DNA of 64,000 nucleotides from a virus, in UHGV virus genome UHGV-0218015; one strand, written 5' to 3'. The notes beneath the pieces were generated by a model. The model made no database searches, had not been told where the DNA came from, and saw nothing but the letters and a program-made list of their open reading frames with translations. Below are positions 14,300-64,000 of the stretch, in pieces. Positions within the stretch are counted from its first letter, which is position 1. Every line of letters begins with the position of its first letter. Made by a program: the position numbers and the translations under genes.

Positions 14300-14366
14300 T
14301 AAGTAAAAATAGACTTTCTCTAACTGCCGCGCTTTAGTCGCGGCTTTTGTTAAGAGGGAAATAGAA

Positions 14367-15140: not shown

Positions 15141-15152
15141 TGAGGTGGAACC

Positions 15153-15731: not shown

Positions 15732-15732
15732 C

Positions 15733-15768
15733 GTCGGTGGGGGTTTACCCCCACCTTTTATTTTTTGT
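15733..15768 (+). terminator. rho-independent terminator
   Basis: Hairpin GGTGGGGGT / ACCCCCACC followed by a T-rich run (TTTTATTTTTTG). Confidence 0.7.
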
Positions 15769-15785
15769 TCGTCAACATTAAAAAT

Positions 15786-15833
15786 AATTTCAGATATATA
15801 TTACTTAGGTGAGAGTTCAGTTACTCTCACTTA
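15786..15833 (+). promoter_or_regulatory. phage promoter-like motif TTTCAGATATATATTACTTAGGTGA with downstream stem-loop
   Basis: Second copy of the motif at 11394-11425; immediately followed by the inverted repeat GTGAGAGT..ACTCTCAC; about 48 nt upstream of the ATG at 15861. Confidence 0.45.
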
Positions 15834-15860
15834 ACGAAAACCATTTTAGGAGAACTAAAG

Positions 15861-16232
15861 ATGAAAAGCGAATTATTTAAAGACCCGTTTGTTGCATTAC
15901 TGATCGTTACACGCGCCGCCACTAACCCAGAAGACCTGAAACGTTTACTTACCAACGAAGCATACCTTCTCGAGCAACGTGACGTGCAGTTAGACAAACC
16001 ACACGCTGAAAGCCAGGTGAAAGACCTTATCTCTATTTTCCGTAACGAAGAATGGCGTAAAAACAACGAGCTGTCCGATAACCTGACGGTTTCGATTGCA
16101 AAACTCTTAACATTGTTCAATCTTGACAAAGACATTAATCAATGCCTTTCTACAGAAGAACGCCTGGAAATGATAAGAGGTATCGGAGATAGTTATACAC
16201 AGATTCAGGCATTACGCAACGCTCTCATTTAA
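15861..16232 (+). CDS. hypothetical protein (123 aa)
   Basis: ORF with AGGAG RBS, downstream of the promoter-like motif. Confidence 0.5.
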   Translation: MKSELFKDPFVALLIVTRAATNPEDLKRLLTNEAYLLEQRDVQLDKPHAESQVKDLISIFRNEEWRKNNELSDNLTVSIAKLLTLFNLDKDINQCLSTEERLEMIRGIGDSYTQIQALRNALI

Positions 16233-16263
16233 TTCCTCGGTTTATAGGGCCCCTTATTTTTAG

Positions 16264-16662
16264 ATGGTGAAATCAATGAATATCAGAACAATACTTTATA
16301 CTATCATTATTTTCTGTGCGGCAGGCATCACCGCTACTTATGCTTTTGGGGAGTCAGATATCCACTACTACGACCCAGCACCAGACTCCCCAATTATTAA
16401 TCCTGATGAAACACCAACACTAATGCGAAGCTTCGGTAAACTAGAGGTGTACCGTCTGGTGCGTGCCGACGTGTGTACTGGTTTGATTATCGCCGATAGC
16501 AGTGCACATGTTTATCAGCGTCTAACCGATATTGCTTGCGAACAACCAAAAGTAATGTCGGTTAGCATACATCCGTTATCTGTTGGTAACTATACCGCTG
16601 TGGACTTCTTTCATAACGCCGAATTAATTGGCCGAGTTACTTTAAATCGTCCTGCTGAATAA
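16264..16662 (+). CDS. small secreted or membrane protein (signal peptide)
   Basis: N-terminal hydrophobic leader NIRTILYTIIIFCAAGITATYA; 132 aa. Confidence 0.5.
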   Translation: MVKSMNIRTILYTIIIFCAAGITATYAFGESDIHYYDPAPDSPIINPDETPTLMRSFGKLEVYRLVRADVCTGLIIADSSAHVYQRLTDIACEQPKVMSVSIHPLSVGNYTAVDFFHNAELIGRVTLNRPAE

Positions 16663-16680
16663 TCTAAAGGAGTAGTCACA

Positions 16681-17166
16681 ATGAAACGTTTACATACACT
16701 GATGTTCTTTCTGGTTTTCTTGTTTATCGGTGCCACACCTACTGTAGATGCGGCCCCCGTAGACGAATTACTTACCTGCGATGGGAACGCTCGGGAAGGT
16801 CAGCCAAATGCGTGTCCAAACATCAACGACTTGTACGATACCGATAAGTCATTTAAAGGTGTTGTTGATAAAACACTAGATCCGGTGGGACTGGATGGAA
16901 TGTTCGGCTCTAAAGGTTACATGGATGGCCCTGGCGGTAACATGTATCCGGTAAATATCAACAACAAAATCTGGATTGAAAGTGGTGGTTGTAAAGCTAA
17001 CGCTTGTGGCTGGGAATATATCGTAACGCTATACAACCCACACACCAAGAAACTCGTCGGTTATTATTACAACATCGACCCCGGTTATCTGATTTGGTTC
17101 GGCGAAATCGGCGTTGCTGAATTCGGTTATCTGGTTAAGAAGTACGTAGAACAATCTAAATACTAA
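16681..17166 (+). CDS. secreted cysteine-containing protein, possible Ivy-like fold
   Basis: Sec-type leader MKRLHTLMFFLVFLFIGATPTVDA; GGCKANAC loop reminiscent of the Ivy CKPHDC loop as I recall it; 161 aa. Confidence 0.4.
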   Translation: MKRLHTLMFFLVFLFIGATPTVDAAPVDELLTCDGNAREGQPNACPNINDLYDTDKSFKGVVDKTLDPVGLDGMFGSKGYMDGPGGNMYPVNINNKIWIESGGCKANACGWEYIVTLYNPHTKKLVGYYYNIDPGYLIWFGEIGVAEFGYLVKKYVEQSKY

Positions 17167-17176
17167 GGAGTTTATC

Positions 17177-17587
17177 ATGAAAACTATCATCAACACTCTT
17201 CTCATTGCAATTGCTATTCTGTTCTCTGTTAACGTATCAGCAAAAATAACACAGTTGCCAGCTGGAATTAAGTACGTCAATAGTACCGACGATTTCTACT
17301 GTACAGAAATTGACGGCCTGTACTGTCAGGCGAAGAGCCTGTTTAAATACAAAGGTAGCAGATACGTGTTCATCGTTGAGCAGGGCGGGGCCTGGTGCTA
17401 CGACAGCCCTATGTCCGTACTCAACCTCGAAACGTGGAAAGCACAGCGCCTTGAATACAACGACAAACGTTTGTGCTCTGGCAATAACAAACCATTCTTC
17501 GAAGTCGTAGATGGTGTACCGATGGTGGGGATATTAGACACTTCGGAAAAACCTATCGTTGTAGCTATGGATAAACTTAAAATTTAA
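17177..17587 (+). CDS. secreted cysteine-containing protein
   Basis: Leader MKTIINTLLIAIAILFSVNVSA; GG..C motif (EQGGAWCYD) shared with neighbours; 136 aa. Confidence 0.5.
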   Translation: MKTIINTLLIAIAILFSVNVSAKITQLPAGIKYVNSTDDFYCTEIDGLYCQAKSLFKYKGSRYVFIVEQGGAWCYDSPMSVLNLETWKAQRLEYNDKRLCSGNNKPFFEVVDGVPMVGILDTSEKPIVVAMDKLKI

Positions 17588-24016: not shown

Positions 24017-24742
24017 ATGTATAAATCCAACTGGAGAAACAAAATGTTTCGTATCTTCTTTCTTTTACTGGTAACACTTTTCGCGTTTAACGCACAGGCG
24101 TCAACGTCAACGCCACAAACTAAACATCAGCGTGAGTTTACACAAATCCAACATCGGTTCGAAAAAGTCAGTCCGTTAATTGTGGAAATCTCACGAAAGC
24201 AAGGCGTTGATCCTAAGCTGATGATTACGCTGATTTATCGTGAATCGCGTTTTGATCCCAAGGCTTACAACAAAAGCTCACGGGCACACAGCCTGGTACA
24301 GATGCTTCCAAGTACCAAGCGTAGTCTGCTAAAGCTTTATGGAAAAGAATTAGGTCTTAGTCAGAACGCCGATTTGTATAATCCGCGTAACGCTGTTTTG
24401 CTGGCTACCGCGTATGTTAAACATCTTGAGAAGGGGTTAACCAAACGACTCAAACGCAAGCCCACCATGGCTGAAGTTGCGTTAGCTTACCACTGGGGTG
24501 AAAGTGGTGCTCACACGCGAATCAAAAGCAAATCTCGAGCAGCACAACGAGAAATGGCAGGCTTTATGAAAGATGCCTCGTTCTATAGCGCGAAAATCGA
24601 TGTGTCTGTTGTTGTGGGCTCGGCCCCACGTCAGCTTGCGTTTGCGAAGAAAACATCACGTCAGATTCAATTGGCGGAAGTTAGTAAAATTTGGGATACG
24701 ATAAACACGAGTTTTCCAATCAATAGAGGAGTTACCCTTTGA
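24017..24742 (+). CDS. secreted lytic transglycosylase (SLT-domain; possible signal-peptide endolysin)
   Basis: Sec leader MFRIFFLLLVTLFAFNAQA; SLT family-1 motifs ...YRESRFDPKAY...AHSLVQMLPST...; 241 aa. Confidence 0.7.
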   Translation: MYKSNWRNKMFRIFFLLLVTLFAFNAQASTSTPQTKHQREFTQIQHRFEKVSPLIVEISRKQGVDPKLMITLIYRESRFDPKAYNKSSRAHSLVQMLPSTKRSLLKLYGKELGLSQNADLYNPRNAVLLATAYVKHLEKGLTKRLKRKPTMAEVALAYHWGESGAHTRIKSKSRAAQREMAGFMKDASFYSAKIDVSVVVGSAPRQLAFAKKTSRQIQLAEVSKIWDTINTSFPINRGVTL

Positions 24743-40437: not shown

Positions 40438-40737
40438 ATGCGTTATCAAACGGAGATTGTGGAACGCTTAAGTGAAGGATTGGCAAGTGTTAATTTAGAA
40501 ACAGCGGCCGAATTTCGTGAAGCCTTCACTCTTCCGTTTCCCGATCTGGAATCCTTTTGTTTAAAGGTCGCTGAGTATTACTCGAATCTATTAGTACGTT
40601 ACGGGTATGCGCCAGTACGTTCCGAACTTCCTGAAAACACGGAAGCTATCAGCTACTGGATTGACCTGCTTGAAGCAGAAACGTTATCCAATTTACGTAA
40701 GGCGGTAGACAATGAAACTCGAACCAGCGCGGCGTAA
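40438..40737 (+). CDS. hypothetical protein (99 aa)
   Basis: ORF with AGGAG RBS, preceded by the stem-loop CGGGTAGGGTAAACCCTACCCG. Confidence 0.45.
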   Translation: MRYQTEIVERLSEGLASVNLETAAEFREAFTLPFPDLESFCLKVAEYYSNLLVRYGYAPVRSELPENTEAISYWIDLLEAETLSNLRKAVDNETRTSAA

Positions 40738-41380
40738 AAAGGCGGAAGCCTACGCCTTACAAATCTTAAAGTTGGTAGACCCTTCTGGCATTAATGCCGA
40801 AGCCGCGAAGAAAGCCTTCGCACGAATGACCGACGAACAGTTTAACCGACTTCGTAACGGTTTACCTATTTACAACCCGGTGGGAAGTAAAGTCGAAATT
40901 GACCACCTGCGCAATATCGAGGTGTGCAAAATCCTAGGGGTAAACCTGGAGCAACGGTTGTGGCTAACAGAACCAAAAACAGGTGTTTATCACCGTACTC
41001 GTTACCCTCACTTGGTCTTACGCTTGCCTGTCCGTCGTCAGACGCAGATGCAAGAGAAGAAAATGGCGGTTGCGAAGAACGACAAAGTTCGCGATAAACT
41101 CTCCGGTCAAGTTGTCGGTCCTTCCAAAGCATCCGGGGTCTCCTTCCCAGAAGCATACATCATGTATTCCGATGGTCACGACTGGACACTGAAAGAGTTC
41201 TTGTGGGCGCGTGGTGGTAACGACGCACTACAACGTGCTTTCTATCAGTCGCTGCGCCAAACCGGTAAAGGACGTATCGATTTGCCTGGAGCTGAGCGAA
41301 CGAGTTCTAAAGCAACACGGACGTGGTCAGCGTACCTCAAAGCGATGCATATCGGTAACAACATAGGCCATCCGTCATGA
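40712..41380 (+). CDS. hypothetical protein (222 aa)
   Basis: Complete ORF overlapping the previous gene by 26 nt. Confidence 0.5.
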   Translation: MKLEPARRKKAEAYALQILKLVDPSGINAEAAKKAFARMTDEQFNRLRNGLPIYNPVGSKVEIDHLRNIEVCKILGVNLEQRLWLTEPKTGVYHRTRYPHLVLRLPVRRQTQMQEKKMAVAKNDKVRDKLSGQVVGPSKASGVSFPEAYIMYSDGHDWTLKEFLWARGGNDALQRAFYQSLRQTGKGRIDLPGAERTSSKATRTWSAYLKAMHIGNNIGHPS

Positions 41381-53099: not shown

Positions 53100-55271
53100 T
53101 TAACGTGCTTGCGGCAAGAAGATGTTCGCGATCTGACGGGCTGGGATAACATCCAGTGCCGAGTTAATAAAACTACCCTGTGACCACGCAGATGCCCAGT
53201 TTTGTGCCCAGATGCTCGCATTAATCTTGGCACGTGCAATACCGTTAGTACGCTCGTACAACGTAGCACCGCCTAAACACGCCATAAATTCACTGAATTT
53301 GTTATCATCATCCCACACACCTGTGTCAGTAACAATGGGCATGTACATAACGCGAGTCAAATCACGAATAGTAACAGAGATGTCGCAAGACAGTGGGACG
53401 GAATCACCTGGCCGCCAACCTAAACCACCCACACCGAACTGTAACGACATCGACGTCACCATCGCGTTACGGAAAGAAAAGCGTCCTTGTGAGTAACACT
53501 CTAAGTAGAACGGGTGAGTAAAAGATTGTTTACCTGTAGCCAGGGGACAGACCGCAGCGATCCAGAATGACAGGGGAACGAGCAGGTCTTGGAAGATATC
53601 CAAGTCGTTGCCAGACCAACAACGTAACGGTATCGTTAACGTAATGTCATCTCCCGATGCATCCGAACTATCCCACACCTCCGGAAAGTCAATTACCGAA
53701 GAGTTGTACAACGACATGATCCCTGTCAAATGTAAGGTGTCGGCAACGCCACGCATCGCGGACTTAATCCCGGAAACTAAAGCATCTACGGCGCTGAAAC
53801 CCGTTTGACCGCCGGAAAGGTTGACTTCTAACGAACGTGCTTTCGCGGTTAACGAGTTAACGGTGCCTGAAATCTCTGGCTCTTTTGTAGAGTTGGAGAA
53901 CGAACGAGAAACCGTGTCTTTAGCGTCGATACGCCACGACACCCATTGTGAGCCGTTACGGATTTCAGAAAGCGCATTTTCCTTAATACCATCGATATAG
54001 TTTTTACCCATTTCGACGAAATCTTTAAAGAAGGTCCCTACGTTTTCTTTAGAACCCGTATCTGCCCATTCTTGTATCTTAGCTATATCGGGGACATCCT
54101 CACCACCGATTTCATTTTCAGCTTTTTCCGCCGCAGCCATGTTTGCTGCCATCGATTCTCGAAGTTTCTTTGTGTTCGCATCGATTTCATCTGCGGTACC
54201 GCCAGCGGTTAGTGTGCCAGTGATCCCTTCAACCAACTTAGACTCTTGATCGTTAATATTTTCAAAAGGCGCTTTATAAGCGTTGTCTTTTTGAGCAACC
54301 GTTTCTAAGTCATGCAATGAAACTTCGAAACTACCCGCATCATTAATAACGCGTTTGGAGTACATCCCTTCGTTATAAAACGCACGTAGTTTTCTTGCAA
54401 ATGCTTCTTCGTCCCCACCGCTTTCAACGCGCATTTGCTCTATGGCTTTGGTCTGATAATTCGCTAATGTTTGATAGCGGTTTATCATTCGGTAGACGTC
54501 AAACTCCCCATTATCTTTCCAGATAGTAGGCAACGAAGCATACCAGTCTTGTTTATCATTGCTGTATGAATTTGTACCATCATCGGTATTTTCTTGTAGT
54601 TTGAAATTACCGAGCACGCCTGTGGGAACCAAACGACGATAAATGAGTTGCGTGTTTAGAATGTTTTGCACGGCACGTAAATACAAATGCATCGTTGGCT
54701 TAACGTAATAGTAACGTGAAGTTTGTTTATTCAATACCGCTTTTAGAATTCGCGGCGTAATAAGAATAACCGCAAAAGCAACGGTACCTACAGTGGCCCA
54801 TATTGCCGCTGCACCTAAATACGAAACCATCGTTCTCATCATACCTGGATAGTCCCCAGTACGGGCCAAGTACGCTAGGTTGGAGTCGTACATGTTCGCA
54901 AAGAACGCGGCCATACCCAGATATTTCGGTTTACCAAACCGACAATGAACATAAAACGAATTCTGATTAATACTTTCGTAGAAATAGGTACCGAGTTTAT
55001 ACGAACCCGTTTCTCGGTTATTAGAGAATGATTTGGTTTCGGCTCTCGGGTTGTCAGGTTGTGCAAATGCGCCAGTCGACGGCGGATCTGCAAACCATGT
55101 AAATTGGGGCGGCGTGTTAATCGCTTTACTGCCACCTAACGTGGTGTCCTCGAACGATAACATGCCGTTGGAGTAGCGTCGCAAGGCCAGGAAACGTTCA
55201 TCTCGGCCATCCAACACGCCGTTAAAGAGGCTTTTGACCCAGCTTGAGTCGTTAGCTGTTCTAGCGTCCAC
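53100..55271 (-). CDS. large virion protein (723 aa) with internal transmembrane segment
   Basis: Hydrophobic stretch MVSYLGAAAIWATVGTVAFAVILI; lies immediately downstream of the giant SLT-containing protein. Confidence 0.55.
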   Translation of the reverse strand: MDARTANDSSWVKSLFNGVLDGRDERFLALRRYSNGMLSFEDTTLGGSKAINTPPQFTWFADPPSTGAFAQPDNPRAETKSFSNNRETGSYKLGTYFYESINQNSFYVHCRFGKPKYLGMAAFFANMYDSNLAYLARTGDYPGMMRTMVSYLGAAAIWATVGTVAFAVILITPRILKAVLNKQTSRYYYVKPTMHLYLRAVQNILNTQLIYRRLVPTGVLGNFKLQENTDDGTNSYSNDKQDWYASLPTIWKDNGEFDVYRMINRYQTLANYQTKAIEQMRVESGGDEEAFARKLRAFYNEGMYSKRVINDAGSFEVSLHDLETVAQKDNAYKAPFENINDQESKLVEGITGTLTAGGTADEIDANTKKLRESMAANMAAAEKAENEIGGEDVPDIAKIQEWADTGSKENVGTFFKDFVEMGKNYIDGIKENALSEIRNGSQWVSWRIDAKDTVSRSFSNSTKEPEISGTVNSLTAKARSLEVNLSGGQTGFSAVDALVSGIKSAMRGVADTLHLTGIMSLYNSSVIDFPEVWDSSDASGDDITLTIPLRCWSGNDLDIFQDLLVPLSFWIAAVCPLATGKQSFTHPFYLECYSQGRFSFRNAMVTSMSLQFGVGGLGWRPGDSVPLSCDISVTIRDLTRVMYMPIVTDTGVWDDDNKFSEFMACLGGATLYERTNGIARAKINASIWAQNWASAWSQGSFINSALDVIPARQIANIFLPQAR

Positions 55272-55318: not shown

Positions 55319-58300
55319 TTACGCCCGTTTACGACCAACGTCGAGTTGGCGGGCAGGTTGTTCAACCGCGATGTTACGTGATGCTGACCCCGGGGCAGAA
55401 GCCGCCGAACTAGCTGGGGAGGACTGCATAGCCTGTGGTCGCTGACGAAGAATTGTAACAATCTCTCTCAGATAACCCGCAGACTCTTTTGCAACCGCCA
55501 GCTGCTGTACGCTAATCGGATCACCGCTGTTCACCGTTGGCGCAGTCTGTGCATCAGACGTTACCGTTGGCGCAGGACGAGCTGTTTTCTCCATTTGCTG
55601 TCTAGCACCTTCTTTTACTTTGGCAACTTCCTCTTCGCCCAGGCCATCAGCACGCGCATTTTGACCCACCGTTTCAACAACGACAGACGCATCACTTGGC
55701 GTGACGTCACCGCCAGGACTCGGCACAGCTGGACCACCCCCAGTTGCAGCTTTAATATCTTCAGCGCCCATCGCTCCTTTGTCTGCTAAAGCGGAGTCAC
55801 GATTCGCCTCGTTCGCGGCTGGCAGGTTATCTGCCGGACCAGAAATAGACGGATCGTTAGCTGCGCCAGCAGCAATTGCAGGAGACGATGGAACTGGCGA
55901 TAACCCTTTTGTCATGTTTTTCGCAGACGCAGGATTTGCCGCAATCTCGTTAGTTCCAACCGCGCCCATACGGCGGTTCAGTTCCTCGACAACCTCACCG
56001 ATCGTACGCATCCTAACGCGTTTCTTCCCGTTCATGATATAGAAAACACCTTCGTTGCCGTTAAGAACAGCAGGTGTAATATACTTCACTTTGTCGGGCG
56101 ACCCGTTAGGATTGGTTTTCCAGGCTTTAAGGAACTCAGCACCACCACCTGGACCTAAGAAGTGGTATAGGTACGCTACTGCCGGAGGTGGGGCAATTCC
56201 ACCCAGATCCTTTTGTGCGGTCTTGATGTTGTCTCTAATGAAGTTAACACCTAAGATTGCGTTAGCCCACGGGTCGAACTGGTCGGTTTGTGGGATACCG
56301 TATCTTCGGGCGTACTGCTTCATAACCCCGTTCCAAGTACCATTGGTAAATTGGAACAGTCCAGCGGCAGACATCTTATTACTTCTCGGTCTACCAGAGG
56401 ATGCGCCAGGGTAGTTGCCATACTGTAAGCCAGATTCTGCTTGTGCCATTGCAATCGCAACGGATGGCGGAACACCCACCATGTTTGCCGCGTCAATAAT
56501 CAATGACTTAATGGCTTCGGTATTTGACTGCATCGGTTTGCCAAGCATTTCCCTTGGGTATTTAGTCACTAACGATTTGTAATCACCGTCTTGTAACTCA
56601 CCGAGGGTGATACCAGATTGTCCAGTGGAATACTTCGCATAGTTCCCTATACCCATATCGCCAACAACTTGTGATAAGTCACCTGGCGTACCGTAGTACT
56701 GACCACCTTTTGGTAAGTATCCGTCGTTTGAAGCTTCGCCGTAGCTGTTAATTCCCTTATAACGCTCTTTGCTATCTTCATTCGTCTGATGGACACTGGA
56801 GTTTGTCGCTGGTGATTTCCATGTCATACGCTTAGGCGTGCTCGGTGTTTCTTTGAGCATATTCCTTACAGCCAGATCAGGTTCTTTAGACAACTCTTTC
56901 AACGTTGCTAATTCTTCCTTCACCGAACCCGCGTCAGTATTCGCATCGCCTCCTAACGGGTTAAATGCGATTTCCCACACAGACTGACGGATACCCCCTT
57001 TCATGTTGTAAGCACCACGCATCATCAGTGCCAGCTCATAGAGGAAACCCCCCGTGAGTTTCAAATCCAACGGATCGGCATGAGGTACGTAACGTTTTAC
57101 ACCATAAACGTAGGTCATGAATACTGGTAAGAATCGATTATAGAACCAGTTCTTGTAACGCTCCTCTTTTGGACCGCCAATTGCATCAGGCGCAATCGCA
57201 GAAATTGCTTTCTTCCAATCACCCTTATAAATGCAATTTTTGATATCCGTGTCTTTCAACACTTCTTTCTCAAGCAACCTAAAGAGGGTACGTGTTGTCT
57301 CATTAACAGATTTCACACCGTAAGATTTCCAACGGACGGATTCCATCGCGTCCAAATCTTTCTTCTCAGGTAATACTCTCCAGTCAACTTGAATTTGAAC
57401 CTGTTCAGTACCGTCTTCCCAACCCTCAGCTTTAGCAACGGTTTCGTTACGTTCGGTATCGTTCTTCGCGAGTACCTGCGAAGATTCTGCCACAGAAGCA
57501 ACCTTATGTCCTTCAGGCACAGCACCGGCTCTAGTTGTTTTCTTACGCTTATCATCGCGGCGCATGTTGATCGAACGGAAAACACGATCTTGTGCCTCAA
57601 CAACTTCTTCGCCTGACAAAAATTCTGCCGGTGTGAAGGTCACGAAATCCCACGCTTTAGAGAACCAACCTTGGTTAACTTTACGGGGGTCTGTCAGCGA
57701 TTTAAAAGCAGGTGCATCTTTTGTCATCTTCATTTTGTTAAAGATGGTAAGCATGTCTGCTTTTGATACCTTCGACGGATTACCGACGTCAGCTAACGCG
57801 ATATCGTTATCCATTGAACGTAACGCTGTAATCCAACGTAAATAGATCGGCACAAAACGTTGTAGCATAAACGCACTAAACGCCAGCATTTCGCCTTTGT
57901 CTTCTACGTTAGTACCAAACCCTTCGGCCAGTTTCTTCACATCGTCACCGGACAAACCACGCAGCTGCGCTTGACCGTTCTCTGTATAAGAGATATACGG
58001 TTTCAAGTTGTCTTCTAAATAACGTGCTTTTGCACCGTCGTCGGAAGACCATTCATCGTGGTCTCTAAAACCGTACTGTGCCAATCGCATGTTATCCAGA
58101 TACTGGGCATTTACACGATCTTTAGTTTTATAATAAAACCACGTTAACCCTGCGCCAGCGGCTACCAAACCGATAATCGGCCAGCCAACCGCAGTTACCA
58201 CTGCAGATGCAGCTGTCGCGACAGCACTAACCGCAGGGACAGCCAAACGGGTCACGGCAAACTTACCAACGTTCCACAACGCTTTGCCTGCAAATCCAAC

Positions 58301-61300
58301 CGGCTTGAAGATTCCCCATTTTGCAAGTTTACCTAAGATTGAACCCACTGTGCCTAAAATACTCACGATTGGTCCTACCAACGGCAATCCTTTAAGGAAA
58401 TCCATTACCCCACGTTTACCACCTTTCTTCTCAGCCTCTTTCTTAGCCTTTTCCTCTTCCTTAGAACGCCGACGGCGTCGGAAGAACTGGAAGTAATCGC
58501 GTTTTTCATCACTGGCAGGCGGCTTATTGCGTTGGCCGAACTTACTGAACATAGTTCTTAACAAACCTTCCGAAGCACCTGCTTTTTCCGCAGAATCACG
58601 CATGGTGTTAAACCATGACATTTCCTGAAGATTAACCATTCGGTTCAGGCGTTCCAGTAAAGCTGACCCAACGCTACGGGCTTTCTGTTTCCCTTTATTA
58701 ATCACACGTCCAGCGCTATCCGTTACGGTGTCTAAGTCTTCTTTTGCCGCATCGATGATACGTGTTTTAGACACCTTGCCTCTTGCGTAGATGTGCTGAC
58801 GATAAAACTCAGCAACATCGTCATCGCGTCCTGCTAAACGACTCTCCATTCGATAACGTGTGCCGATATCGTAACGTGGGTCTCGGAAAGTATCGACCAT
58901 ATCGCTTGCACGGCCACGGAAACGATCAAACCAACCACGTGCGGCACCGCCCCAACGAGAAAGACGACCACCTACCGCATTGCGATAACGGGACATTCTG
59001 TCACGCATCCGACCGCGCCAATCCCGGAACCCCTGAAAATGTTCACGGAACCCTTCACGTATGTCCTTAGCACGTTGGAATAATCCTTTAACTGAGCTGG
59101 CTCCCGTATTCCGTTCCATCTGTTCTGTCCAGGTATCATCTTCTGGTTCACCTGGCAATCTCCGGTTAAGGAGTTTGTAGATACGGATTAAGATGTGGTT
59201 AGTTTTACGGCCGTTCGACCATGAGAACACACTAAACCCACCACCAGAACCCCCTTCCTTACGGTTCTGCCACCAACGTGTCAGAGGGTTATCAGAAGCC
59301 AACTCTTTGAGCTTCTCAAACCCGCGTTTTGCATTGTTCCACAAACGCGCTGGCATTCCCGTTACACGGGAAATCATGCTTTGTAAACGGGTTTTCTCTG
59401 CGCCCTCTGGAACCTCATTTAGCCACTCGCGTGCTTTCTCGAACAACGAAGCCGCTTTAGGTGAAATGAAGCCCAGAAGTTTCTTCGGTAAAGTCACAGC
59501 TTTGTTTACCGCCGTTCCTGCTTTCCCAGAAATGTACTGGAAAAGCGCTTGAACTTTACCACCTTTGTAGAAGCGCAGTTTACCTGCGGCAGCCAAATCA
59601 GCAGCAGCTAAGATTAAATTACCCGCTTCATCGACAATATCGCGTCCCAGTTTAATATCGTCGAGGGTTTTAAGTTGAATCAGCTTCTCAGTTTTCGGGT
59701 CAGCCTGGTAATATTCCCCAGCTTCTAAACGACTTCCTTGTAATACGACGTTGCCACGTTCATCGTAAATATCACGAACACCTAAAACGCCTTTACCGAA
59801 AGCTACAGCAGAATTCCAACCTGTCGATAGAGTACCTGTTACTAACCCTTTCAGTCGGCTAAATACACCGGGTCCTTCGGAGGGGCCGCCTGAGAATTTC
59901 CCACGGATAAAACCACCTAAAGCCTGCAGACGATCTTTCCCACGTAGGAACAGATTCTTACCAAACCGCCCTACACCTGAACCGGTATCCCAAAGCACCC
60001 CAGCCCAACGGCGTAACAAGCCTGTCTCGCCTAGCACAATACGTTTGCGTTTACGACGACGTTTACGACCCGAGTCACTCGAACTTTCAGATTCGTCACC
60101 GTCATCACGACTACCGCCTAAACTGGCTAGGAGAATACCTTCCTCATCCATGTTCTTAACGTGTTTGAGGATATCTTGCACTGTGCTAGATTCGGGCTGT
60201 TTACGTACAGCATCAATCAAACGGTCGAATTGGTGCTCCAACCCGGCGTTCGTGTCTGGACGACTGCTTAATAGTTCAACAAAGTTAGTGGATTTCTCTC
60301 CATAAAGTACCGCAGCGAGTTGGCGTGCGCTTAAACCGCGACCACGACCTCCTTTTCCACCGCCACGTACATTGGACAGTTCTTTGTCTTCAAAGCTCGG
60401 CTCTGCGCCTGCACCCATCCGACGCAAGTAATCACCCAGCGCAGAACCGTTTTGCAATTTACGCTGAATCTCTTGCTCACGGGTTAACGAACGTCCAGAG
60501 CGGGTCTTACCCATCGACAGGTCATTAAATAACGTATAGGGATCGTTAATGTCCTTATCAACCTCGAAAATGTCATTCTTCGCATCGTATTTAAAAATAC
60601 CGGAATCACGAAGTGCATTCTCGCCGTAAATCACAGACGCAGCATCAACAGTGTCCTGACGTGCGCGAATCGTTGACTGGATAGCGGCGATTTTGTTTGA
60701 AATCGCGTTGCTCAGTTCATGGTGCCCACCAACCAGTTCCGCAGAACGGGCTTCTAAAACACCCTGAATCGCTTCCACAGCGTTTGCGTTCATGTACCGA
60801 TACATGTGCATCGGGTCTTTCAATAAAGACCCTACGTCGAACGCTTTCCCTTCTGAGGCACGAGATTCGATGTAGTCCGCTAATGCTTGACGTGTTTTAT
60901 TATCGAGCGTTTTATCTTTATCGATAAAGTCAACAGTGTCGTTGATGTAAGTCTGTAAACGTTTACGCTGATCGTCATTAGCGACCGCTTTACGAACACG
61001 ATTACCAATAACTTTACGATCCACCATACCGCGTGTGGTCAGGTCATAAACCTGATCGTGGTGTTCCCCATATCCACGACGAATAGATTTGTTAATCTCG
61101 GACAGTAACGTCGGAATAACTTCAGTGATGCTGAGGTAAGCTTTACGATCGAATTTCGCCGCCGCAGAAAGAGATTCCGCAGAGCGATCGTCTAATGCTA
61201 ACGTTTCGCGACGTAGCGGGTTAACCAATCCCAAATCGTGCATTAGGCGAAACAGATCAGCTAACGGGCCGCTTGTTTCTCCTGCTATTGCTGAGTTAGA

Positions 61301-62485
61301 GATGGACGACAAATTTCCAAAACCATACTTCGCCAACTGAAGGCGTTTCATGACTTCTGGATTTTTCTCTAACTCGCCACGAGTCCAGTTTTGTAGACGT
61401 TCGATCTGTGGTTGTAAGAGTCGTTTTGCTAACCAACCACCTGCAAAACCTGCCGCTTTATTACGCGAGTTTGTATTACGACGGTCAGGAGACAACGATG
61501 AGCTGTCCGACATGTCAAAGTCGTCTTCCTGGGCCATCCCTAGAACTTGTTCTAGAATCCCACGACCATCGCTAAAGACGTTCGAGATTTTCTTCTTCGC
61601 GTTCTCACGAATCTGGCTAATGAAATTGTCTGCGTAATGTAAGGGGTTCATCCACTCCGCAGCTTTACGTTTTACATTAGCCCAACGAATTTCAGAAAAC
61701 TCTTCCTTCGCGTAGTCTGGCAGTGCTGTATTCTTAACGATAGCTTCTAATGCCGGTGTATTGCGTGCAAACTCGTCTTGTTTGAGTTTCGCAATATCCT
61801 GCAAAGCAAACAATGTCCGATATTGCAGCTCTAACTGCTTACGCTGAACATTCAACAACACGCCACGACTTAAGCTAGTCGTTAAGTTGACGTCTTTTGC
61901 AATACCGATTACTGTCTGGAACAGTGCGTCGGACTTCATGTCCTTAATCGTGTCACGCAAGCGGTCTTCAACCATCCCTTCTTGCGTTTCGCGTTGTTGG
62001 TCCGCTGTTTGCGGTGCACCTGAGAACACGCTATCCAGCTCACGATCCATCAACGCTTGTTTAGGATCGTAATTCCCGTAGTCGACTTGATCGTTACGTG
62101 CCCACTTGTCGATTTTCCGTGTTACGGATTCCGGTAAATACCGTTTCAGTGTTGGGCCTAACTGTCTCGCTTGCATCTTAACGACGCGAGACGTCTTTTC
62201 AATCTCGTCTTTCGTATGGGCCAGAATGTCTTGACCTGCAGCTTTAACGTTTTGATAGCCTTCGTAGGCTTCTGCCGCAGGTTTAGGCATCCCTTTTAAA
62301 ATAACCTGATCACGTTTGTTTTCGGGCCAGATAGTCGACAACGCCGACTTACGGGCAGCACGAAATGTGTCCATGACCGGGTTACGCGATTGGTCTTGTT
62401 GACGAGGGGGCTCATCAAAATCGTCCCAGTCGTCCATGTTATCAAGATCGATTTCATCGAAATCATCTTTACCTTTTTTAGCCAT
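55319..62485 (-). CDS. giant virion protein (2388 aa) with transmembrane block and lytic transglycosylase domain
   Basis: Acidic N-terminus; hydrophobic helices around aa 1290-1385 (at about nt 58330-58615); SLT family motifs VAIAMAQAESGLQYG...AAGLFQFTNGTW...AYLYHFLGPGG near the C-terminus (at about nt 56000-56400). Size and domain placement resemble phiKZ gp181 as I recall it. Confidence 0.8.
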   Translation of the reverse strand: MAKKGKDDFDEIDLDNMDDWDDFDEPPRQQDQSRNPVMDTFRAARKSALSTIWPENKRDQVILKGMPKPAAEAYEGYQNVKAAGQDILAHTKDEIEKTSRVVKMQARQLGPTLKRYLPESVTRKIDKWARNDQVDYGNYDPKQALMDRELDSVFSGAPQTADQQRETQEGMVEDRLRDTIKDMKSDALFQTVIGIAKDVNLTTSLSRGVLLNVQRKQLELQYRTLFALQDIAKLKQDEFARNTPALEAIVKNTALPDYAKEEFSEIRWANVKRKAAEWMNPLHYADNFISQIRENAKKKISNVFSDGRGILEQVLGMAQEDDFDMSDSSSLSPDRRNTNSRNKAAGFAGGWLAKRLLQPQIERLQNWTRGELEKNPEVMKRLQLAKYGFGNLSSISNSAIAGETSGPLADLFRLMHDLGLVNPLRRETLALDDRSAESLSAAAKFDRKAYLSITEVIPTLLSEINKSIRRGYGEHHDQVYDLTTRGMVDRKVIGNRVRKAVANDDQRKRLQTYINDTVDFIDKDKTLDNKTRQALADYIESRASEGKAFDVGSLLKDPMHMYRYMNANAVEAIQGVLEARSAELVGGHHELSNAISNKIAAIQSTIRARQDTVDAASVIYGENALRDSGIFKYDAKNDIFEVDKDINDPYTLFNDLSMGKTRSGRSLTREQEIQRKLQNGSALGDYLRRMGAGAEPSFEDKELSNVRGGGKGGRGRGLSARQLAAVLYGEKSTNFVELLSSRPDTNAGLEHQFDRLIDAVRKQPESSTVQDILKHVKNMDEEGILLASLGGSRDDGDESESSSDSGRKRRRKRKRIVLGETGLLRRWAGVLWDTGSGVGRFGKNLFLRGKDRLQALGGFIRGKFSGGPSEGPGVFSRLKGLVTGTLSTGWNSAVAFGKGVLGVRDIYDERGNVVLQGSRLEAGEYYQADPKTEKLIQLKTLDDIKLGRDIVDEAGNLILAAADLAAAGKLRFYKGGKVQALFQYISGKAGTAVNKAVTLPKKLLGFISPKAASLFEKAREWLNEVPEGAEKTRLQSMISRVTGMPARLWNNAKRGFEKLKELASDNPLTRWWQNRKEGGSGGGFSVFSWSNGRKTNHILIRIYKLLNRRLPGEPEDDTWTEQMERNTGASSVKGLFQRAKDIREGFREHFQGFRDWRGRMRDRMSRYRNAVGGRLSRWGGAARGWFDRFRGRASDMVDTFRDPRYDIGTRYRMESRLAGRDDDVAEFYRQHIYARGKVSKTRIIDAAKEDLDTVTDSAGRVINKGKQKARSVGSALLERLNRMVNLQEMSWFNTMRDSAEKAGASEGLLRTMFSKFGQRNKPPASDEKRDYFQFFRRRRRSKEEEKAKKEAEKKGGKRGVMDFLKGLPLVGPIVSILGTVGSILGKLAKWGIFKPVGFAGKALWNVGKFAVTRLAVPAVSAVATAASAVVTAVGWPIIGLVAAGAGLTWFYYKTKDRVNAQYLDNMRLAQYGFRDHDEWSSDDGAKARYLEDNLKPYISYTENGQAQLRGLSGDDVKKLAEGFGTNVEDKGEMLAFSAFMLQRFVPIYLRWITALRSMDNDIALADVGNPSKVSKADMLTIFNKMKMTKDAPAFKSLTDPRKVNQGWFSKAWDFVTFTPAEFLSGEEVVEAQDRVFRSINMRRDDKRKKTTRAGAVPEGHKVASVAESSQVLAKNDTERNETVAKAEGWEDGTEQVQIQVDWRVLPEKKDLDAMESVRWKSYGVKSVNETTRTLFRLLEKEVLKDTDIKNCIYKGDWKKAISAIAPDAIGGPKEERYKNWFYNRFLPVFMTYVYGVKRYVPHADPLDLKLTGGFLYELALMMRGAYNMKGGIRQSVWEIAFNPLGGDANTDAGSVKEELATLKELSKEPDLAVRNMLKETPSTPKRMTWKSPATNSSVHQTNEDSKERYKGINSYGEASNDGYLPKGGQYYGTPGDLSQVVGDMGIGNYAKYSTGQSGITLGELQDGDYKSLVTKYPREMLGKPMQSNTEAIKSLIIDAANMVGVPPSVAIAMAQAESGLQYGNYPGASSGRPRSNKMSAAGLFQFTNGTWNGVMKQYARRYGIPQTDQFDPWANAILGVNFIRDNIKTAQKDLGGIAPPPAVAYLYHFLGPGGGAEFLKAWKTNPNGSPDKVKYITPAVLNGNEGVFYIMNGKKRVRMRTIGEVVEELNRRMGAVGTNEIAANPASAKNMTKGLSPVPSSPAIAAGAANDPSISGPADNLPAANEANRDSALADKGAMGAEDIKAATGGGPAVPSPGGDVTPSDASVVVETVGQNARADGLGEEEVAKVKEGARQQMEKTARPAPTVTSDAQTAPTVNSGDPISVQQLAVAKESAGYLREIVTILRQRPQAMQSSPASSAASAPGSASRNIAVEQPARQLDVGRKRA

Positions 62486-62514
62486 AACGTTTAATCCGTA
62501 TCAGGAGATTTAGC

Positions 62515-64000
62515 GTGAATAAACTTAATTGGGTTGACTTTTATCTGCTCAATGTAAACAAGTCTCTTGTGTCGCGATTACGACCCGTCACGACCACGGA
62601 TACTTTCCAGGGGTTAACAAAAAACTTTCACCCCGAAGGTCTTTACTCTACAGAGATTTTTGGACTCACGGGTAGTGAAGCGCGAGACTCTACATTCTCT
62701 TATATCGATATTAAGCTCGATATCATTTCGCCGACAGTGTGTTTGGCGTTATTCCAACTCAAACAACTCTACGAAGAAATTTGTTCTGGAAAACGCTACG
62801 CAACGTGGAGCGAAAAAGAAAAAGATTTCGAACCGGCCTTGCCGGGAGACCCAGGCGCAGATACCGGTTTTAACTTCTTCCTCAGTCACTATAACGATTT
62901 AAAACCTAAGCGTAACGAGTCCCTACAACGTGACGAAACCGTGGATTTCTTTTTGAAATTCCGCCCCGTCAGTCTTAGTCGATACGTTCTCGTGTTACCC
63001 GCGGGTTTACGCGATTTAGTAATTCGGCAAGATGGCAGAGAGCAAGAAGAAGAAATCGGTGGGATGTATCGTCGGTTGGTATCTCTCGCCAGGGCAATCC
63101 CTGACCGAGCAACCCGTGTCGAATTAACTAACCCCGTACGCTGGAAACTTCAACAAACCTTCAATGACATCTGGATGTATTTCTTTAACATCCAAGACGG
63201 TAAAGGGGGTTTCCAACGTCGTAAAGTGACGTCTCGTAAATTAATGAACGGGACACGTAACGTATTGTCCTCGTTCTCGACGGGGTCTAAATGCATGGGT
63301 CGTGAAGACGCTATTCGTCCTACCGACACCAAAATTGGTTTATACCAGGGTTTAAAAGCATTACTCCCTGTTGCGCAGTACCAAATACGTGAACGTTACC
63401 TCGGTAACATCCGTGCTGGTGATGGCAACCTTTACGGCGTAAACACCAAAACCCTTAAACGTGAATTCTTGGAAGTAGGTGGTCGTGTATACGACACCTT
63501 TACCACCGACGATGGGATTGAATCCTTAATCAACCGAATGGAAGCTCGCGAGCTTCGCCATCAGCCGATTATGTTGGATGACACCCACTACATTGCGTTG
63601 GTTTACCAAGACACCAAACATTTTAAGGTGTTCTACGATATTGAAGAACTTCCTAAAACGTTTGACCGAAAATTCGTTCACGGTATGACACTCGTCGAAT
63701 TGCTTTATTTGTCGGGCTACGAACTTTGGAACGATTATTTCGGTTTCGTTACACGTTATCCCGTTACAGGCCGAGGCTCGACGTATTCATCGACCATAAG
63801 ATTGGAGACCACCACGTCATCTTTATATTTAAAAGAACTGGAAGATGACTGGGAAACTGAAAAACCCCGAGGGGCTATCAGCTACCCTGACCGGTCGGTT
63901 CCTACCTTCGTTGAGTCTATGGCACCACACCCTTCACGCTTAGGTGGCTTAGGGGGTGACTATGACGGTGATACCGGCTCGTTTAACGCGCCTATGTCCC
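62515..64000 (+). CDS. RNA polymerase beta-prime-like subunit, N-terminal part (partial; runs off the window)
   Basis: GTG start after a CAGGAG RBS; open frame to the window end (about 495 codons); GKGGFQRRKVTSRKLMNGTRNV resembles the beta-prime GRFRQNLLGKRVDYSGRSV segment and the final GGDYDGDTGSF resembles the catalytic NADFDGD loop. Confidence 0.4.
   Translation, partial: MNKLNWVDFYLLNVNKSLVSRLRPVTTTDTFQGLTKNFHPEGLYSTEIFGLTGSEARDSTFSYIDIKLDIISPTVCLALFQLKQLYEEICSGKRYATWSEKEKDFEPALPGDPGADTGFNFFLSHYNDLKPKRNESLQRDETVDFFLKFRPVSLSRYVLVLPAGLRDLVIRQDGREQEEEIGGMYRRLVSLARAIPDRATRVELTNPVRWKLQQTFNDIWMYFFNIQDGKGGFQRRKVTSRKLMNGTRNVLSSFSTGSKCMGREDAIRPTDTKIGLYQGLKALLPVAQYQIRERYLGNIRAGDGNLYGVNTKTLKREFLEVGGRVYDTFTTDDGIESLINRMEARELRHQPIMLDDTHYIALVYQDTKHFKVFYDIEELPKTFDRKFVHGMTLVELLYLSGYELWNDYFGFVTRYPVTGRGSTYSSTIRLETTTSSLYLKELEDDWETEKPRGAISYPDRSVPTFVESMAPHPSRLGGLGGDYDGDTGSFNAPMS

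What the first reader, a model, noticed from the sequence alone, without database searches (positions are those of the whole stretch)
55319..64000. Giant SLT-containing virion protein divergently paired with a highly divergent RNA polymerase beta-prime-like gene
The 2388-aa protein combines an acidic N-terminus, a transmembrane block and a C-terminal lytic transglycosylase domain, like the gp181-type cell-wall-piercing protein of phiKZ-like phages. Only ~30 nt away on the other strand, a gene running off the window carries GxFxxxxxxxR...G.R and DYDGD motifs suggestive of a divergent multisubunit-type RNA polymerase. Together they argue for a phiKZ-like virion-RNAP phage, but the RNAP call depends on two short motifs.
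Basis: partly seen in the sequence, partly recalled or inferred. Interest (0 to 1): 0.45.

Follow-up and report, generated by a model that had tools for sequence, protein, structure and literature searches.

The report
Jumbo-phage tape measure and virion RNA polymerase genes

Summary
Both parts of the observation are real. A 2388-aa ORF lies at 55319-62485 (-). On the other strand, 29 nt from its start codon, an ORF begins at GTG 62515 and runs off the window.

The partial ORF is a genuine multisubunit-RNAP beta-prime fragment, not a two-motif guess:
- It matches PHROG 2986 at E 3e-219.
- It is 32% identical to phiKZ gp180 (E 4e-74) and about 86% identical to the SPN3US gp240 orthologues.
- A 27-sequence profile hits solved beta-prime chains, including the NADFDGD site.
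- An AlphaFold model retrieves only RNAP beta-prime structures.
- It does not match the non-virion paralogue phiKZ gp55 (E 0.13).

The giant protein is the orthologue of SPN3US gp239, the published tail tape measure protein (60.5% identity, full length), and of phiKZ gp181. It has an SLT domain with catalytic Glu2017.

The head-to-head arrangement is conserved, with a 29-nt gap in SPN3US, phiEaH2 and a 220-kb Salmonella contig and a 75-nt gap in phiKZ. Published SPN3US and phiKZ work already places both homologues in the virion.

This is a new member of a known kind (Chimalliviridae) and of low interest. The database label "tail fiber" is a misnomer.

The parts
55319..62485 (-). Gene for the 2388-aa tail tape-measure protein with an SLT domain. 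It is the orthologue of SPN3US gp239, phiEaH2 gp159 and phiKZ gp181.
   Evidence: ORF list and translation. phrog_3201 matches along its length. tblastn gives 60.5% identity over 100% of the query to SPN3US_0239. BLASTP to phiKZ gp181 gives E 9e-28 and 1e-16.
62381..62485 (-). Acidic N-terminal segment (aa 1-35, MAKKGKDDFDEIDLDNMDDWDDFDEPPR...).
   Evidence: 13 D/E in 35 residues, net charge -8. The segment is conserved in L005, phiEaH2 and SPN3US. Only a short LDLSDVDDIF remnant is present in phiKZ gp181.
58136..58411 (-). Hydrophobic, probably membrane-inserting block (aa 1359-1450) with at least two TM-length segments.
   Evidence: Kyte-Doolittle 19-mer maxima of 1.8-1.9. The block sits at the same position in L005, phiEaH2 and SPN3US. 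In phiKZ gp181 the equivalent region, about aa 1297-1350, is only a weakly hydrophobic Gly/Ala-rich stretch with a maximum of 1.22.
56024..56545 (-). Lytic transglycosylase (SLT) domain, aa 1981-2154. The catalytic Glu2017 in AQAES is encoded at nt 56435-56437.
   Evidence: Pfam PF01464 at E 2.5e-8. phmmer against the solved phiKZ gp144 transglycosylase 3bkh gives E 8.8e-11. The ES motif was located.
55322..55948 (-). Ala/Pro/Ser-rich low-complexity C-terminal tail (about aa 2180-2388). This is the most divergent part of the protein.
   Evidence: Composition per 100 aa shows A+P+S of 35-36%. Identity to the closest relative falls to 65-68% in the last third.
62486..62514 (.). 29-nt divergent intergenic spacer. 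It holds the Shine-Dalgarno AGGAG (62503-62507) of the RNAP gene.
   Evidence: Sequence. The spacer length, SD and GTG start are conserved in L005, phiEaH2 and SPN3US. No sigma-70-like promoter lies in the spacer.
62515..64000 (+). [quoted passage not shown] It is the orthologue of SPN3US gp240 and phiKZ gp180, and is cut by the window end about 46 codons before its stop.
   Evidence: phrog_2986 at E 3e-219. 96% identity to the 541-aa P0001. BLASTP to phiKZ gp180 gives E 4e-74. Profile hits to PDB beta-prime chains. Foldseek hits are all RNAP beta-prime.
63958..63972 (+). Catalytic Mg-binding motif DYDGD (aa 482-486), the counterpart of NADFDGD in cellular beta-prime.
   Evidence: Motif position. 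D482, D484, G485 and D486 are invariant in 27 homologues that go down to 39% identity. The profile aligns the motif to NADFDGD of plastid beta-prime.
63199..63273 (+). GKGGFQRRKVTSRKLMNGTRNVLSS, the counterpart of beta-prime GKxGRFRxxLLGKRVDYSGRSVI.
   Evidence: Aligned by the profile search to AR9 nvRNAP beta-prime and plastid beta-prime. K230, G232, R241, G246, T247, R248 and V250 are invariant.
53100..55271 (-). 723-aa tail/baseplate protein immediately downstream of the tape measure gene. It is the orthologue of SPN3US gp238 (an essential tail gene) and of phiKZ gp182 (baseplate spacer ring).
   Evidence: BLASTP to phiKZ gp182 gives E 5e-38 and 3e-20. phrog_3181 at E 7e-254. The role of gp182 comes from PMC13250141 and that of gp238 from PMC5105663.
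52520..53083 (-). 187-aa virion structural protein (DUF7941), the last gene of the same leftward gene string.
   Evidence: Pfam PF25613 at E 1.2e-22 and phrog_2935. It is syntenic with SPN3US_0237 and phiEaH2 gp157.
40712..41380 (+). 222-aa C-terminal fragment of the virion RNAP beta subunit (orthologue of phiKZ gp149). It is a second subunit of the same enzyme, 21 kb upstream.
   Evidence: phrog_3233 at E 6e-93. BLASTP to phiKZ gp149 gives 36% identity, E 1e-43. Homologues occur in 297 jumbo-phage records.

Best explanation
The window comes from a Chimalliviridae jumbo phage of the SPN3US/phiEaH2 type. The finding covers the conserved junction between two divergent strings of late virion genes.

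Leftward string (tail core). This string encodes three proteins:
- a 2388-aa tape-measure protein;
- the baseplate spacer-ring protein;
- a small virion protein.

By inference, the tape-measure protein lies in the tail-tube lumen and leaves the tail first on sheath contraction. Its SLT domain (Glu2017) would then cut peptidoglycan locally, and its hydrophobic block (aa 1359-1450) would insert into the inner membrane to help form the conduit for DNA.

Rightward string (head interior). [quoted passage not shown] That fragment carries the double-psi beta-barrel with the DYDGD magnesium site. In relatives it is followed by the beta N-fragment, further head proteins and the prohead protease.

Inferred mechanism of the polymerase. 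It assembles from four or five polypeptides, one of which (the beta C-fragment) is also encoded in this window. It is packaged into the head and ejected with the DNA. It then transcribes early genes independently of the host RNA polymerase.

What is shown here: the homology, domain content, motifs, synteny and fold.

What is taken from published work on homologues: virion location, muralytic activity and co-injection.

What is inferred: ruler function, exit order and membrane insertion.
For: RNAP gene:
- phrog_2986 at E 3e-219.
- 1103 homologues, the nearest a 541-aa protein at 96% identity.
- tblastn finds orthologues in 324 phage records, nearly all phiKZ-like jumbo phages, some annotated as virion-associated RNAP beta-prime.
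- phiKZ gp180 at E 4e-74 against E 0.13 for the non-virion paralogue gp55.
- The profile matches AR9 beta-prime N at 1e-13 and bacterial, plastid and cyanobacterial beta-prime at 5e-10 to 2e-6, over both the GKxGxxR...GxR segment and NADFDGD.
- The AlphaFold model (pLDDT 77) gives 425 Foldseek hits at E <= 1e-3, and the top 50 are all RNAP beta-prime.

Giant protein:
- 60.5% identity over its full length to SPN3US gp239.
- Homology to phiKZ gp181.
- SLT domain.

Synteny:
- The order gp237-238-239 | gp240-241-...-protease is identical in the window, L005, phiEaH2, SPN3US and phiKZ.

Literature:
- gp239 is called the tail tape measure protein, is the largest virion protein, and is absent or depleted in tailless particles (PMC5105663; PMC5694885; PMC10052503).
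- gp240 is described as the beta-prime N subunit of the head-located vRNAP, and it is lost together with the other subunits in a gp241 amber mutant.
- The phiKZ vRNAP consists of gp80/149/178/180 and is co-injected with the DNA.
- The gp181 C-terminal domain is muralytic (PMC5380687 citing Briers 2008).
- The beta-prime split site lies after the DPBB and coincides with the cyanobacterial split (PMC7598289).
Against: - The RNAP gene is truncated by the window end. Its stop and the downstream beta gene are seen only in relatives.
- No experiment exists for this particular phage.
- As far as I found, the tape-measure label for gp239/gp181 rests on size, tail location and gene position, not on a length-determination experiment.
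- At 1.5 A per residue, 2388 aa would span about 3600 A. The phiKZ tail is about 2000 A, so the protein cannot be a simple extended ruler.
- gp181 is not modelled in the phiKZ structural atlas.
- The hydrophobic block is strong only in the SPN3US-like clade and weak in phiKZ, so a membrane role may not be general.
- Foldseek TM-scores are low (about 0.3), because the isolated multidomain subunit is not predicted in its assembled conformation.
Confidence: 0.9

Rival explanations
1. The giant protein is the needle-like cell-puncturing spike of the baseplate, analogous to T4 gp5, rather than a tape measure. This is the older assignment for phiKZ gp181.
For: The review PMC5380687 lists gp181 as a "needle-like cell-puncturing device, putative trimer". 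The SLT domain would be useful at the tail tip.
Against: The 2026 phiKZ atlas assigns the spike, spike tip, hub, pin and spacer to gp164, gp163.1, gp101, gp174 and gp182, and does not include gp181. The SPN3US group consistently calls gp239 the tape measure protein. No beta-helix, OB-fold or spike family was detected in the 2388 aa; only SLT was found. The two views partly overlap, because a tape measure protein also exits at the tip.
Confidence: 0.1
2. The giant protein is a tail fibre, as GenBank and PHROG annotations state.
For: phrog_3201 and most GenBank records carry the label "tail fiber protein".
Against: No fibre, receptor-binding or collagen-like domain was detected. The protein has internal TM-like helices and a muralytic domain. 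Published proteomic and genetic work names it the tape measure protein. In phiKZ, fibre and baseplate-periphery proteins are other gene products. The label looks like propagated automatic annotation.
Confidence: 0.03
3. The partial ORF belongs to the non-virion (middle/late) RNA polymerase set rather than the packaged virion enzyme.
For: The best solved-structure match is the AR9 non-virion beta-prime N subunit. No virion RNAP chain matched in the PDB searches, so this says little about which paralogue it is.
Against: BLASTP to phiKZ gp180 (virion) gives E 4e-74, against E 0.13 to gp55 (non-virion); hhalign probability to gp55 is below 1%. It is syntenic with gp178/gp241 and the prohead protease. 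The SPN3US orthologue gp240 was detected in heads and lost together with the other vRNAP subunits.
Confidence: 0.02
4. The head-to-head pairing is itself functional: a shared, compact bidirectional late control region co-regulates the tail-core and head-interior operons.
For: The divergent arrangement is conserved from phiKZ (75-nt gap) to SPN3US-like phages (exactly 29 nt in four genomes). With only 29 nt between start codons, both promoters would probably have to lie at least partly inside the neighbouring coding sequence.
Against: There is no conservation peak around the spacer beyond the SD, the GTG and ordinary coding conservation. No promoter-like signal was detected. phiKZ late promoters are defined only by TATG at the start site, which is too short to test here. 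Conserved gene order across a whole virion module is equally explained by inheritance.
Confidence: 0.25

Closest known systems
Salmonella phage SPN3US gp239 (tail tape measure protein) and gp240 (vRNAP beta-prime N-terminal subunit)
   Same: The architecture is the same: gp237-238-239 on one strand, a 29-nt gap, then gp240-241 and onward to the prohead protease on the other. The protein lengths match (2372 and 537 aa). The acidic N-terminus, hydrophobic block, SLT ES motif and DFDGD-type site are all present.
   Different: The tape measure protein is only 60-62% identical, with its C-terminal third the most diverged, while the RNAP fragment is about 86% identical. DNA similarity is too low for megablast across most of the tape measure gene. 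This is therefore a different species, and probably a different genus-level lineage.
Pseudomonas phage phiKZ gp181 (tail-associated muralytic protein) and gp180 (vRNAP beta-prime N)
   Same: The genes are paired divergently, followed by gp182 on one side and by gp178, gp177, gp176 and the gp175 protease on the other. Homology is significant for all three proteins tested.
   Different: Identity is 32% for the RNAP fragment and about 21-25% in patches for the giant protein. The gap is 75 nt rather than 29 nt. phiKZ gp180 is interrupted inside the D|FDGD motif by an insertion carrying gp179, whereas the window gene is continuous. phiKZ gp181 lacks the strongly acidic N-terminus and has only a weakly hydrophobic counterpart of the TM block.
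Bacillus phage AR9 non-virion RNAP beta-prime N subunit (PDB 7S00/7S01 chain d)
   Same: It is the closest solved structure by profile (E 1e-13) and by fold (E 2.8e-12). It is also a split beta-prime N fragment ending after the DPBB, with a DYDGD site.
   Different: It is the non-virion paralogue from a uracil-DNA phage, with about 14% identity.
Cellular beta-prime, especially the cyanobacterial/plastid RpoC1 (gamma) subunit
   Same: It shares the conserved GKxGRFR...GxRSV segment and the NADFDGD Mg site. The natural split falls at about the same place, after the DPBB.
   Different: Identity is about 12-13%. No CxxC zinc-binding motif is visible in the N-terminal region of the window protein (direct reading). 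The phage enzyme works without alpha or omega subunits (PMC7598289).
Tape measure proteins with muralytic or membrane-active modules (for example T5 Pb2)
   Same: They follow the same logic: a long tail-lumen protein carrying a peptidoglycan-degrading activity (T5 Pb2 is listed as muralytic). The membrane-inserting segments of such proteins are my own knowledge, not tested here.
   Different: No sequence homology was detected. This protein is two to three times longer and belongs to a contractile tail.

Membership tests
phiKZ-type virion RNAP, beta-prime N-terminal subunit (phiKZ gp180 / SPN3US gp240) | Full-length sequence homology to gp180/gp240 | tested here: met
   BLASTP to phiKZ gp180 gives 32% identity over 484 aa, E 4e-74. 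tblastn gives about 86% identity to SPN3US-like phages over 99% of the query. phrog_2986 at E 3e-219.
phiKZ-type virion RNAP, beta-prime N-terminal subunit (phiKZ gp180 / SPN3US gp240) | [quoted passage not shown] | tested here: met
   DYDGD lies at aa 482-486. D482, D484 and D486 are invariant in 27 homologues. The profile aligns the motif to NADFDGD of plastid beta-prime. The model shows beta-strands at 409-458 and 489-491 around the loop.
phiKZ-type virion RNAP, beta-prime N-terminal subunit (phiKZ gp180 / SPN3US gp240) | Overall beta-prime fold | tested here: met
   Foldseek of the AF2 model (pLDDT 77) against PDB: the top 50 hits are all RNAP beta-prime chains, E 2.8e-12 to 3e-8. TM-scores are low (about 0.3), so domain packing is not confirmed.
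phiKZ-type virion RNAP, beta-prime N-terminal subunit (phiKZ gp180 / SPN3US gp240) | Polypeptide ends shortly after the DPBB (split beta-prime) and is followed by the beta N-fragment gene | tested here: met
   This cannot be seen in the window, which ends at codon 495. In the 96%-identical relative L005 the protein is 541 aa and is followed after 3 nt by a 1388-aa ORF. The same holds in phiEaH2 (537 + 1388 aa) and SPN3US (537 + 1401 aa).
phiKZ-type virion RNAP, beta-prime N-terminal subunit (phiKZ gp180 / SPN3US gp240) | Belongs to the virion set, not the non-virion paralogue set | tested here: met
   gp180 gives E 4e-74, against gp55 at E 0.13 and hhalign probability 0.9%. The gene is syntenic with the prohead protease cluster.
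phiKZ-type virion RNAP, beta-prime N-terminal subunit (phiKZ gp180 / SPN3US gp240) | Partner subunits encoded in the same genome | tested here: met
   The beta C-fragment (phiKZ gp149 orthologue, E 1e-43) lies at window 40712-41380. The beta N-fragment is seen only in relatives. The beta-prime C fragments lie outside the window.
phiKZ-type virion RNAP, beta-prime N-terminal subunit (phiKZ gp180 / SPN3US gp240) | Physically packaged in the head, ejected, and transcribing early genes | not testable with these tools
   Known only for homologues: SPN3US proteomics and phiKZ gp180-sfCherry2 co-injection.
gp181/gp239-type tail tape measure protein with SLT domain | Full-length homology to SPN3US gp239 and patchy homology to phiKZ gp181 | tested here: met
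   60.5% identity over 100% of the query to SPN3US_0239. BLASTP to phiKZ gp181 gives E 9e-28 (aa 1463-2173) and 1e-16 (aa 12-550).
gp181/gp239-type tail tape measure protein with SLT domain | SLT/lytic transglycosylase domain with catalytic glutamate | tested here: met
   PF01464 at E 2.5e-8, above the gathering score. phiKZ gp144 (3bkh) at E 8.8e-11, with the ES motif aligned (AQAES against ASIES). Enzymatic activity was not tested.
gp181/gp239-type tail tape measure protein with SLT domain | Gene sits next to baseplate-core genes | tested here: met
   The downstream 723-aa ORF is homologous to phiKZ gp182 (E 5e-38), the baseplate spacer ring.
gp181/gp239-type tail tape measure protein with SLT domain | Located in the tail-tube lumen and determines tail length | not testable with these tools
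   Tail location of gp239 is known from tailless-mutant proteomics. I found no length-determination experiment. gp181 is not modelled in the phiKZ atlas.
Tail fibre protein (database label) | Recognisable fibre or receptor-binding domains | tested here: not met
   Pfam, NCBIfam and PDB sequence searches find only the SLT domain.
Single-polypeptide two-barrel RNAPs (YonO-like, crAss-like virion RNAP) | Both DPBB domains in one long polypeptide | tested here: not met
   The orthologues are 537-541 aa and carry only the beta-prime DPBB. The beta-like parts are separate genes. The family definition comes from my own knowledge.

The most novel reading that the evidence does not exclude
In SPN3US-like phages the tape measure protein has gained a strongly hydrophobic two-to-three-helix block at aa 1359-1450, which is only weakly hydrophobic in phiKZ gp181. 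Together with the SLT domain, this could make it the phage-encoded component that opens the inner membrane. It might even nucleate the lipid early-infection (EPI) vesicle into which the DNA and the neighbouring gene's product, the virion RNAP, are delivered. The conserved pairing of the two genes would then reflect one entry-and-first-transcription module.
Probability: 0.12. Interest if true: 0.5.

Novelty: new member of a known kind. Interest (0 to 1): 0.12.

Why it matters
It matters little beyond annotation. The result fixes the identity of two large genes in an undescribed SPN3US/phiEaH2-like Salmonella-associated jumbo phage. [quoted passage not shown] It also supplies one more diverged sequence pair for comparative work on Chimalliviridae entry and early transcription. 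The clade-specific hydrophobic block in the tape measure protein is the only feature that might repay an experiment.

Tried and rejected
- A direct phmmer search of the partial ORF against PDB found nothing. A 27-sequence profile was needed.
- Pfam and NCBIfam have no model for the RNAP fragment, the 723-aa protein or the giant protein outside the SLT domain.
- The whole giant protein searched against PDB gave only the SLT match.
- I looked for a regulatory element in the 29-nt spacer and found nothing beyond coding constraints. No sigma-70-like promoter lies in the spacer (the scan's single weak match, at 62175-62202 on the minus strand, is inside the giant gene and within shuffle expectation), and there was no terminator. 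There was no conservation peak beyond the SD and the GTG start. The phiKZ late TATG motif is too short to test.
- No tRNA, Rfam family or tandem repeat was found.
- I considered and rejected the non-virion paralogue, the tail-fibre label, and single-polypeptide YonO/crAss-type RNAPs.
- I ran no further search on the giant protein's N-terminal 1300 aa. A helical model would be only weak support for a ruler function.

Full report
**Observation**

A single ORF of 2388 codons runs from ATG 62485 down to 55319 on the minus strand. Four features of its product were checked:
- The first 35 residues hold 13 Asp/Glu, for a net charge of -8.
- Residues 1359-1388 and 1414-1450 are the only strongly hydrophobic stretches outside the SLT domain, with Kyte-Doolittle 19-mer maxima of 1.8-1.9.
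- Pfam SLT (PF01464) matches residues 1995-2093 above its gathering score.
- About 290 Ala/Pro/Ser-rich residues follow the SLT domain, so the domain is near the C-terminus rather than at it.

On the plus strand an ORF starts at GTG 62515, seven bases after AGGAG (62503-62507), and is still open at base 64000, giving 495 codons. The two start codons are 29 nt apart.

**The RNA polymerase gene**

It does not. The evidence is as follows:
- The fragment matches PHROG 2986 end to end at E 3e-219.
- It has more than a thousand homologues. The closest is a 541-aa protein, 96% identical, on a 220-kb contig in a Salmonella assembly.
- tblastn finds orthologues in 324 phage records, nearly all phiKZ-like jumbo phages.
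- Against phiKZ itself it aligns over 484 residues with gp180 (32% identity, E 4e-74).
- The non-virion paralogue gp55 gives only E 0.13 by BLASTP and under 1% probability by hhalign.

A single-sequence search of the PDB found nothing. A profile of 27 homologues reaching down to 39% identity did find matches. It hit the AR9 non-virion beta-prime N subunit at E 1e-13. It also hit bacterial, plastid and cyanobacterial beta-prime at 5e-10 to 2e-6. The alignments cover the GKxGRFR...GxRSV segment and NADFDGD. In that profile D482, D484, G485 and D486 are invariant.

An AlphaFold2 model of the full-length close relative has a mean pLDDT of 77. It retrieved 425 PDB chains at E <= 1e-3, and the top 50 are all RNAP beta-prime. 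TM-scores are low (about 0.3), as expected for an extended subunit modelled outside its complex.

By direct reading, the N-terminal region keeps the GLYSTEIFG element but has no CxxC zinc-binding cysteines.

**The giant protein**

It is 60.5% identical over its whole length to SPN3US_0239 and 62% to phiEaH2 gp159. It is 79.6% identical to the protein of the close Salmonella contig, with the last third the most diverged.

It is homologous to phiKZ gp181 in two blocks. Residues 1463-2173 match at E 9e-28 and include the SLT domain. Residues 12-550 match at E 1e-16. The nearest solved structure to the SLT domain is the phiKZ gp144 transglycosylase (3bkh, E 8.8e-11), and the catalytic ES motif aligns (AQAES, Glu2017).

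The acidic N-terminus and the hydrophobic block are conserved in SPN3US, phiEaH2 and the Salmonella contig. In phiKZ gp181 the N-terminus is not acidic. The equivalent of the hydrophobic block there is a Gly/Ala-rich stretch with a hydropathy maximum of only 1.22.

Nothing else in the 2388 residues matches Pfam, NCBIfam or the PDB. In particular, nothing supports the "tail fiber" label carried by PHROG 3201 and most GenBank records.

**Context**

The gene order is the same in every genome examined:
- Leftward: the tape measure gene, a 723-aa protein, and a 187-aa DUF7941 virion protein.
- Rightward: beta-prime N, a beta-like protein of about 1390 aa, three further proteins, and the prohead protease.

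This order holds in the close contig L005, phiEaH2, SPN3US and phiKZ. The spacer is exactly 29 nt in the four SPN3US-like genomes and 75 nt in phiKZ.

The 723-aa neighbour is homologous to phiKZ gp182 (E 5e-38). The 2026 phiKZ structural atlas identifies gp182 as the hexameric baseplate spacer ring (PMC13250141). Its SPN3US orthologue gp238 is an essential tail gene (PMC5105663).

Elsewhere in the window the PHROG scans fit the core gene set of RNAP-encoding jumbo phages:
- SbcC, UvsX-like recombinase, RNase H-like ribonuclease, thymidylate synthase and MazG;
- virion structural proteins;
- a baseplate protein.

A second virion-RNAP subunit is also present. The 222-aa ORF at 40712-41380 is the orthologue of phiKZ gp149, the beta C-terminal fragment (E 1e-43). 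SPN3US belongs to the genus Seoulvirus, family Chimalliviridae.

**How it most likely works**

For the polymerase, the following is shown here: it is the N-terminal fragment of a split beta-prime carrying the catalytic aspartates, it belongs to the virion paralogue set, and partner subunits are encoded nearby.

The following comes from published work on homologues:
- In SPN3US the subunits gp240, gp241, gp218 and gp42 (plus the candidate gp244) are head proteins.
- All of them disappear from particles when gp241 is knocked out, which suggests assembly before packaging.
- In phiKZ the vRNAP (gp80/149/178/180) is co-injected with the DNA and starts early transcription at the early-infection vesicle.
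- The beta-prime split after the double-psi beta-barrel is common to the virion and non-virion enzymes and to cyanobacteria.

For the giant protein, the homology, the SLT domain with its catalytic Glu, the hydrophobic block and the baseplate-core neighbourhood are shown here. The published evidence is:
- gp239 is the largest SPN3US virion protein (259 kDa).
- It behaves as a tail component in tailless mutants and is called the tape measure protein.
- The C-terminal domain of phiKZ gp181 is muralytic.

Three steps are inferred: that it occupies the tube lumen, that it leaves first on contraction and cuts peptidoglycan, and that it inserts its hydrophobic helices in the inner membrane.

One caveat applies to the ruler idea. 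At about 1.5 A per residue the whole protein would be far longer than a phiKZ-type tail of about 2000 A. At most the first 1300 residues or so, which is roughly the part before the hydrophobic block, could act as a ruler. This is my own arithmetic and is untested.

**Rivals**

- Cell-puncturing spike. This older description of gp181 is weakened by the phiKZ atlas, which assigns spike, tip, hub and pin to other proteins and does not model gp181.
- Tail fibre. This label has no domain support.
- Non-virion RNAP. This is excluded by the paralogue comparison.
- Functional pairing through a compact bidirectional control region. This cannot be decided. There is no sigma-70-like promoter in the spacer, which is expected because these phages do not use the host polymerase. 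There is no conservation peak around the spacer beyond the SD and the GTG start. The phiKZ late-promoter element TATG is too short to evaluate.

**Comparison with known systems and novelty**

Both genes, their arrangement and their roles are established features of phiKZ-like (Chimalliviridae) phages. What is new is only the particular phage.

At DNA level only about 2.5 kb of the 8.7-kb region is similar enough for megablast, at 74% identity to phiEaH2 and Stratton. The tape measure protein is about 60% identical to any deposited phage protein. The nearest relative is an unannotated contig in a Salmonella assembly.

I therefore rate it a new member of a known kind with low interest. The least ordinary point is the clade-specific strongly hydrophobic block in the tape measure protein. 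It invites, but does not establish, a role in membrane opening or in forming the early-infection vesicle.

**Negative searches**

No tRNA, Rfam family or tandem repeat occurs in the region.

Noticed in passing
L003 (phiKZ NC_004629) 14159-17259, minus strand: The annotated phiKZ gp180 CDS ends at "...PLGAD", inside the catalytic motif. The rest (FDGDTVSFNAVYSEEAIAETDAFF...PKQRD*) is readable about 1.4 kb further on, just before gp178, and the 357-aa gp179 ORF lies in between. It looks like an intron or homing-endonuclease insertion exactly in D|FDGD. The window gene is uninterrupted at that site.
   Followed up: partly
window 40712-41380 (+): A 222-aa ORF is the orthologue of phiKZ gp149, the C-terminal fragment of the virion RNAP beta subunit (36% identity, E 1e-43; phrog_3233). 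The window therefore holds two subunits of the same packaged enzyme, 21 kb apart.
   Followed up: yes
window 24017-24742 (+): A second, small (241 aa) SLT-type transglycosylase matches phrog_4067 (E 1e-48) and the SLT part of the tape-measure PHROG. It is probably the phiKZ gp144-like endolysin/neck transglycosylase, a paralogue of the domain in the giant protein.
   Followed up: no
window 92-4276 (-) and 4287-8609 (-): Two adjacent very large ORFs (1394 and 1440 aa) share N-terminal and central similarity: both hit phrog_2163, phrog_7449, phrog_7557 and phrog_8078, annotated as virion structural proteins. This looks like a paralogous pair of giant virion proteins. Whether they correspond to the SPN3US paralog-C tail fibre/baseplate family was not checked.
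   Followed up: no
window 55319-62485 (-) compared with L005, L001 and L006: The tape measure protein evolves much faster than the adjacent RNAP fragment: 79.6% against 96% identity to the nearest relative, and about 62% against about 86% to SPN3US/phiEaH2. Identity declines steadily toward the C-terminus, which includes the region after the SLT domain.
   Followed up: partly
L005 (GCA_044615825.1 contig DBBCHT010000001.1, 220,621 bp): The closest relative of the window is a 220-kb contig deposited within a Salmonella enterica serovar Wangata assembly, not a phage record. This suggests a jumbo phage carried along (carrier state or contamination) in a bacterial sequencing project.
   Followed up: no
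L004 (phiKZ) 9924-12206: phiKZ gp55 (non-virion beta-prime N, annotated as 420 aa) is immediately followed by gp56, annotated as an HNH endonuclease. This is a second RNAP gene in phiKZ with an endonuclease ORF next to it, reminiscent of the gp180/gp179 arrangement.
   Followed up: no
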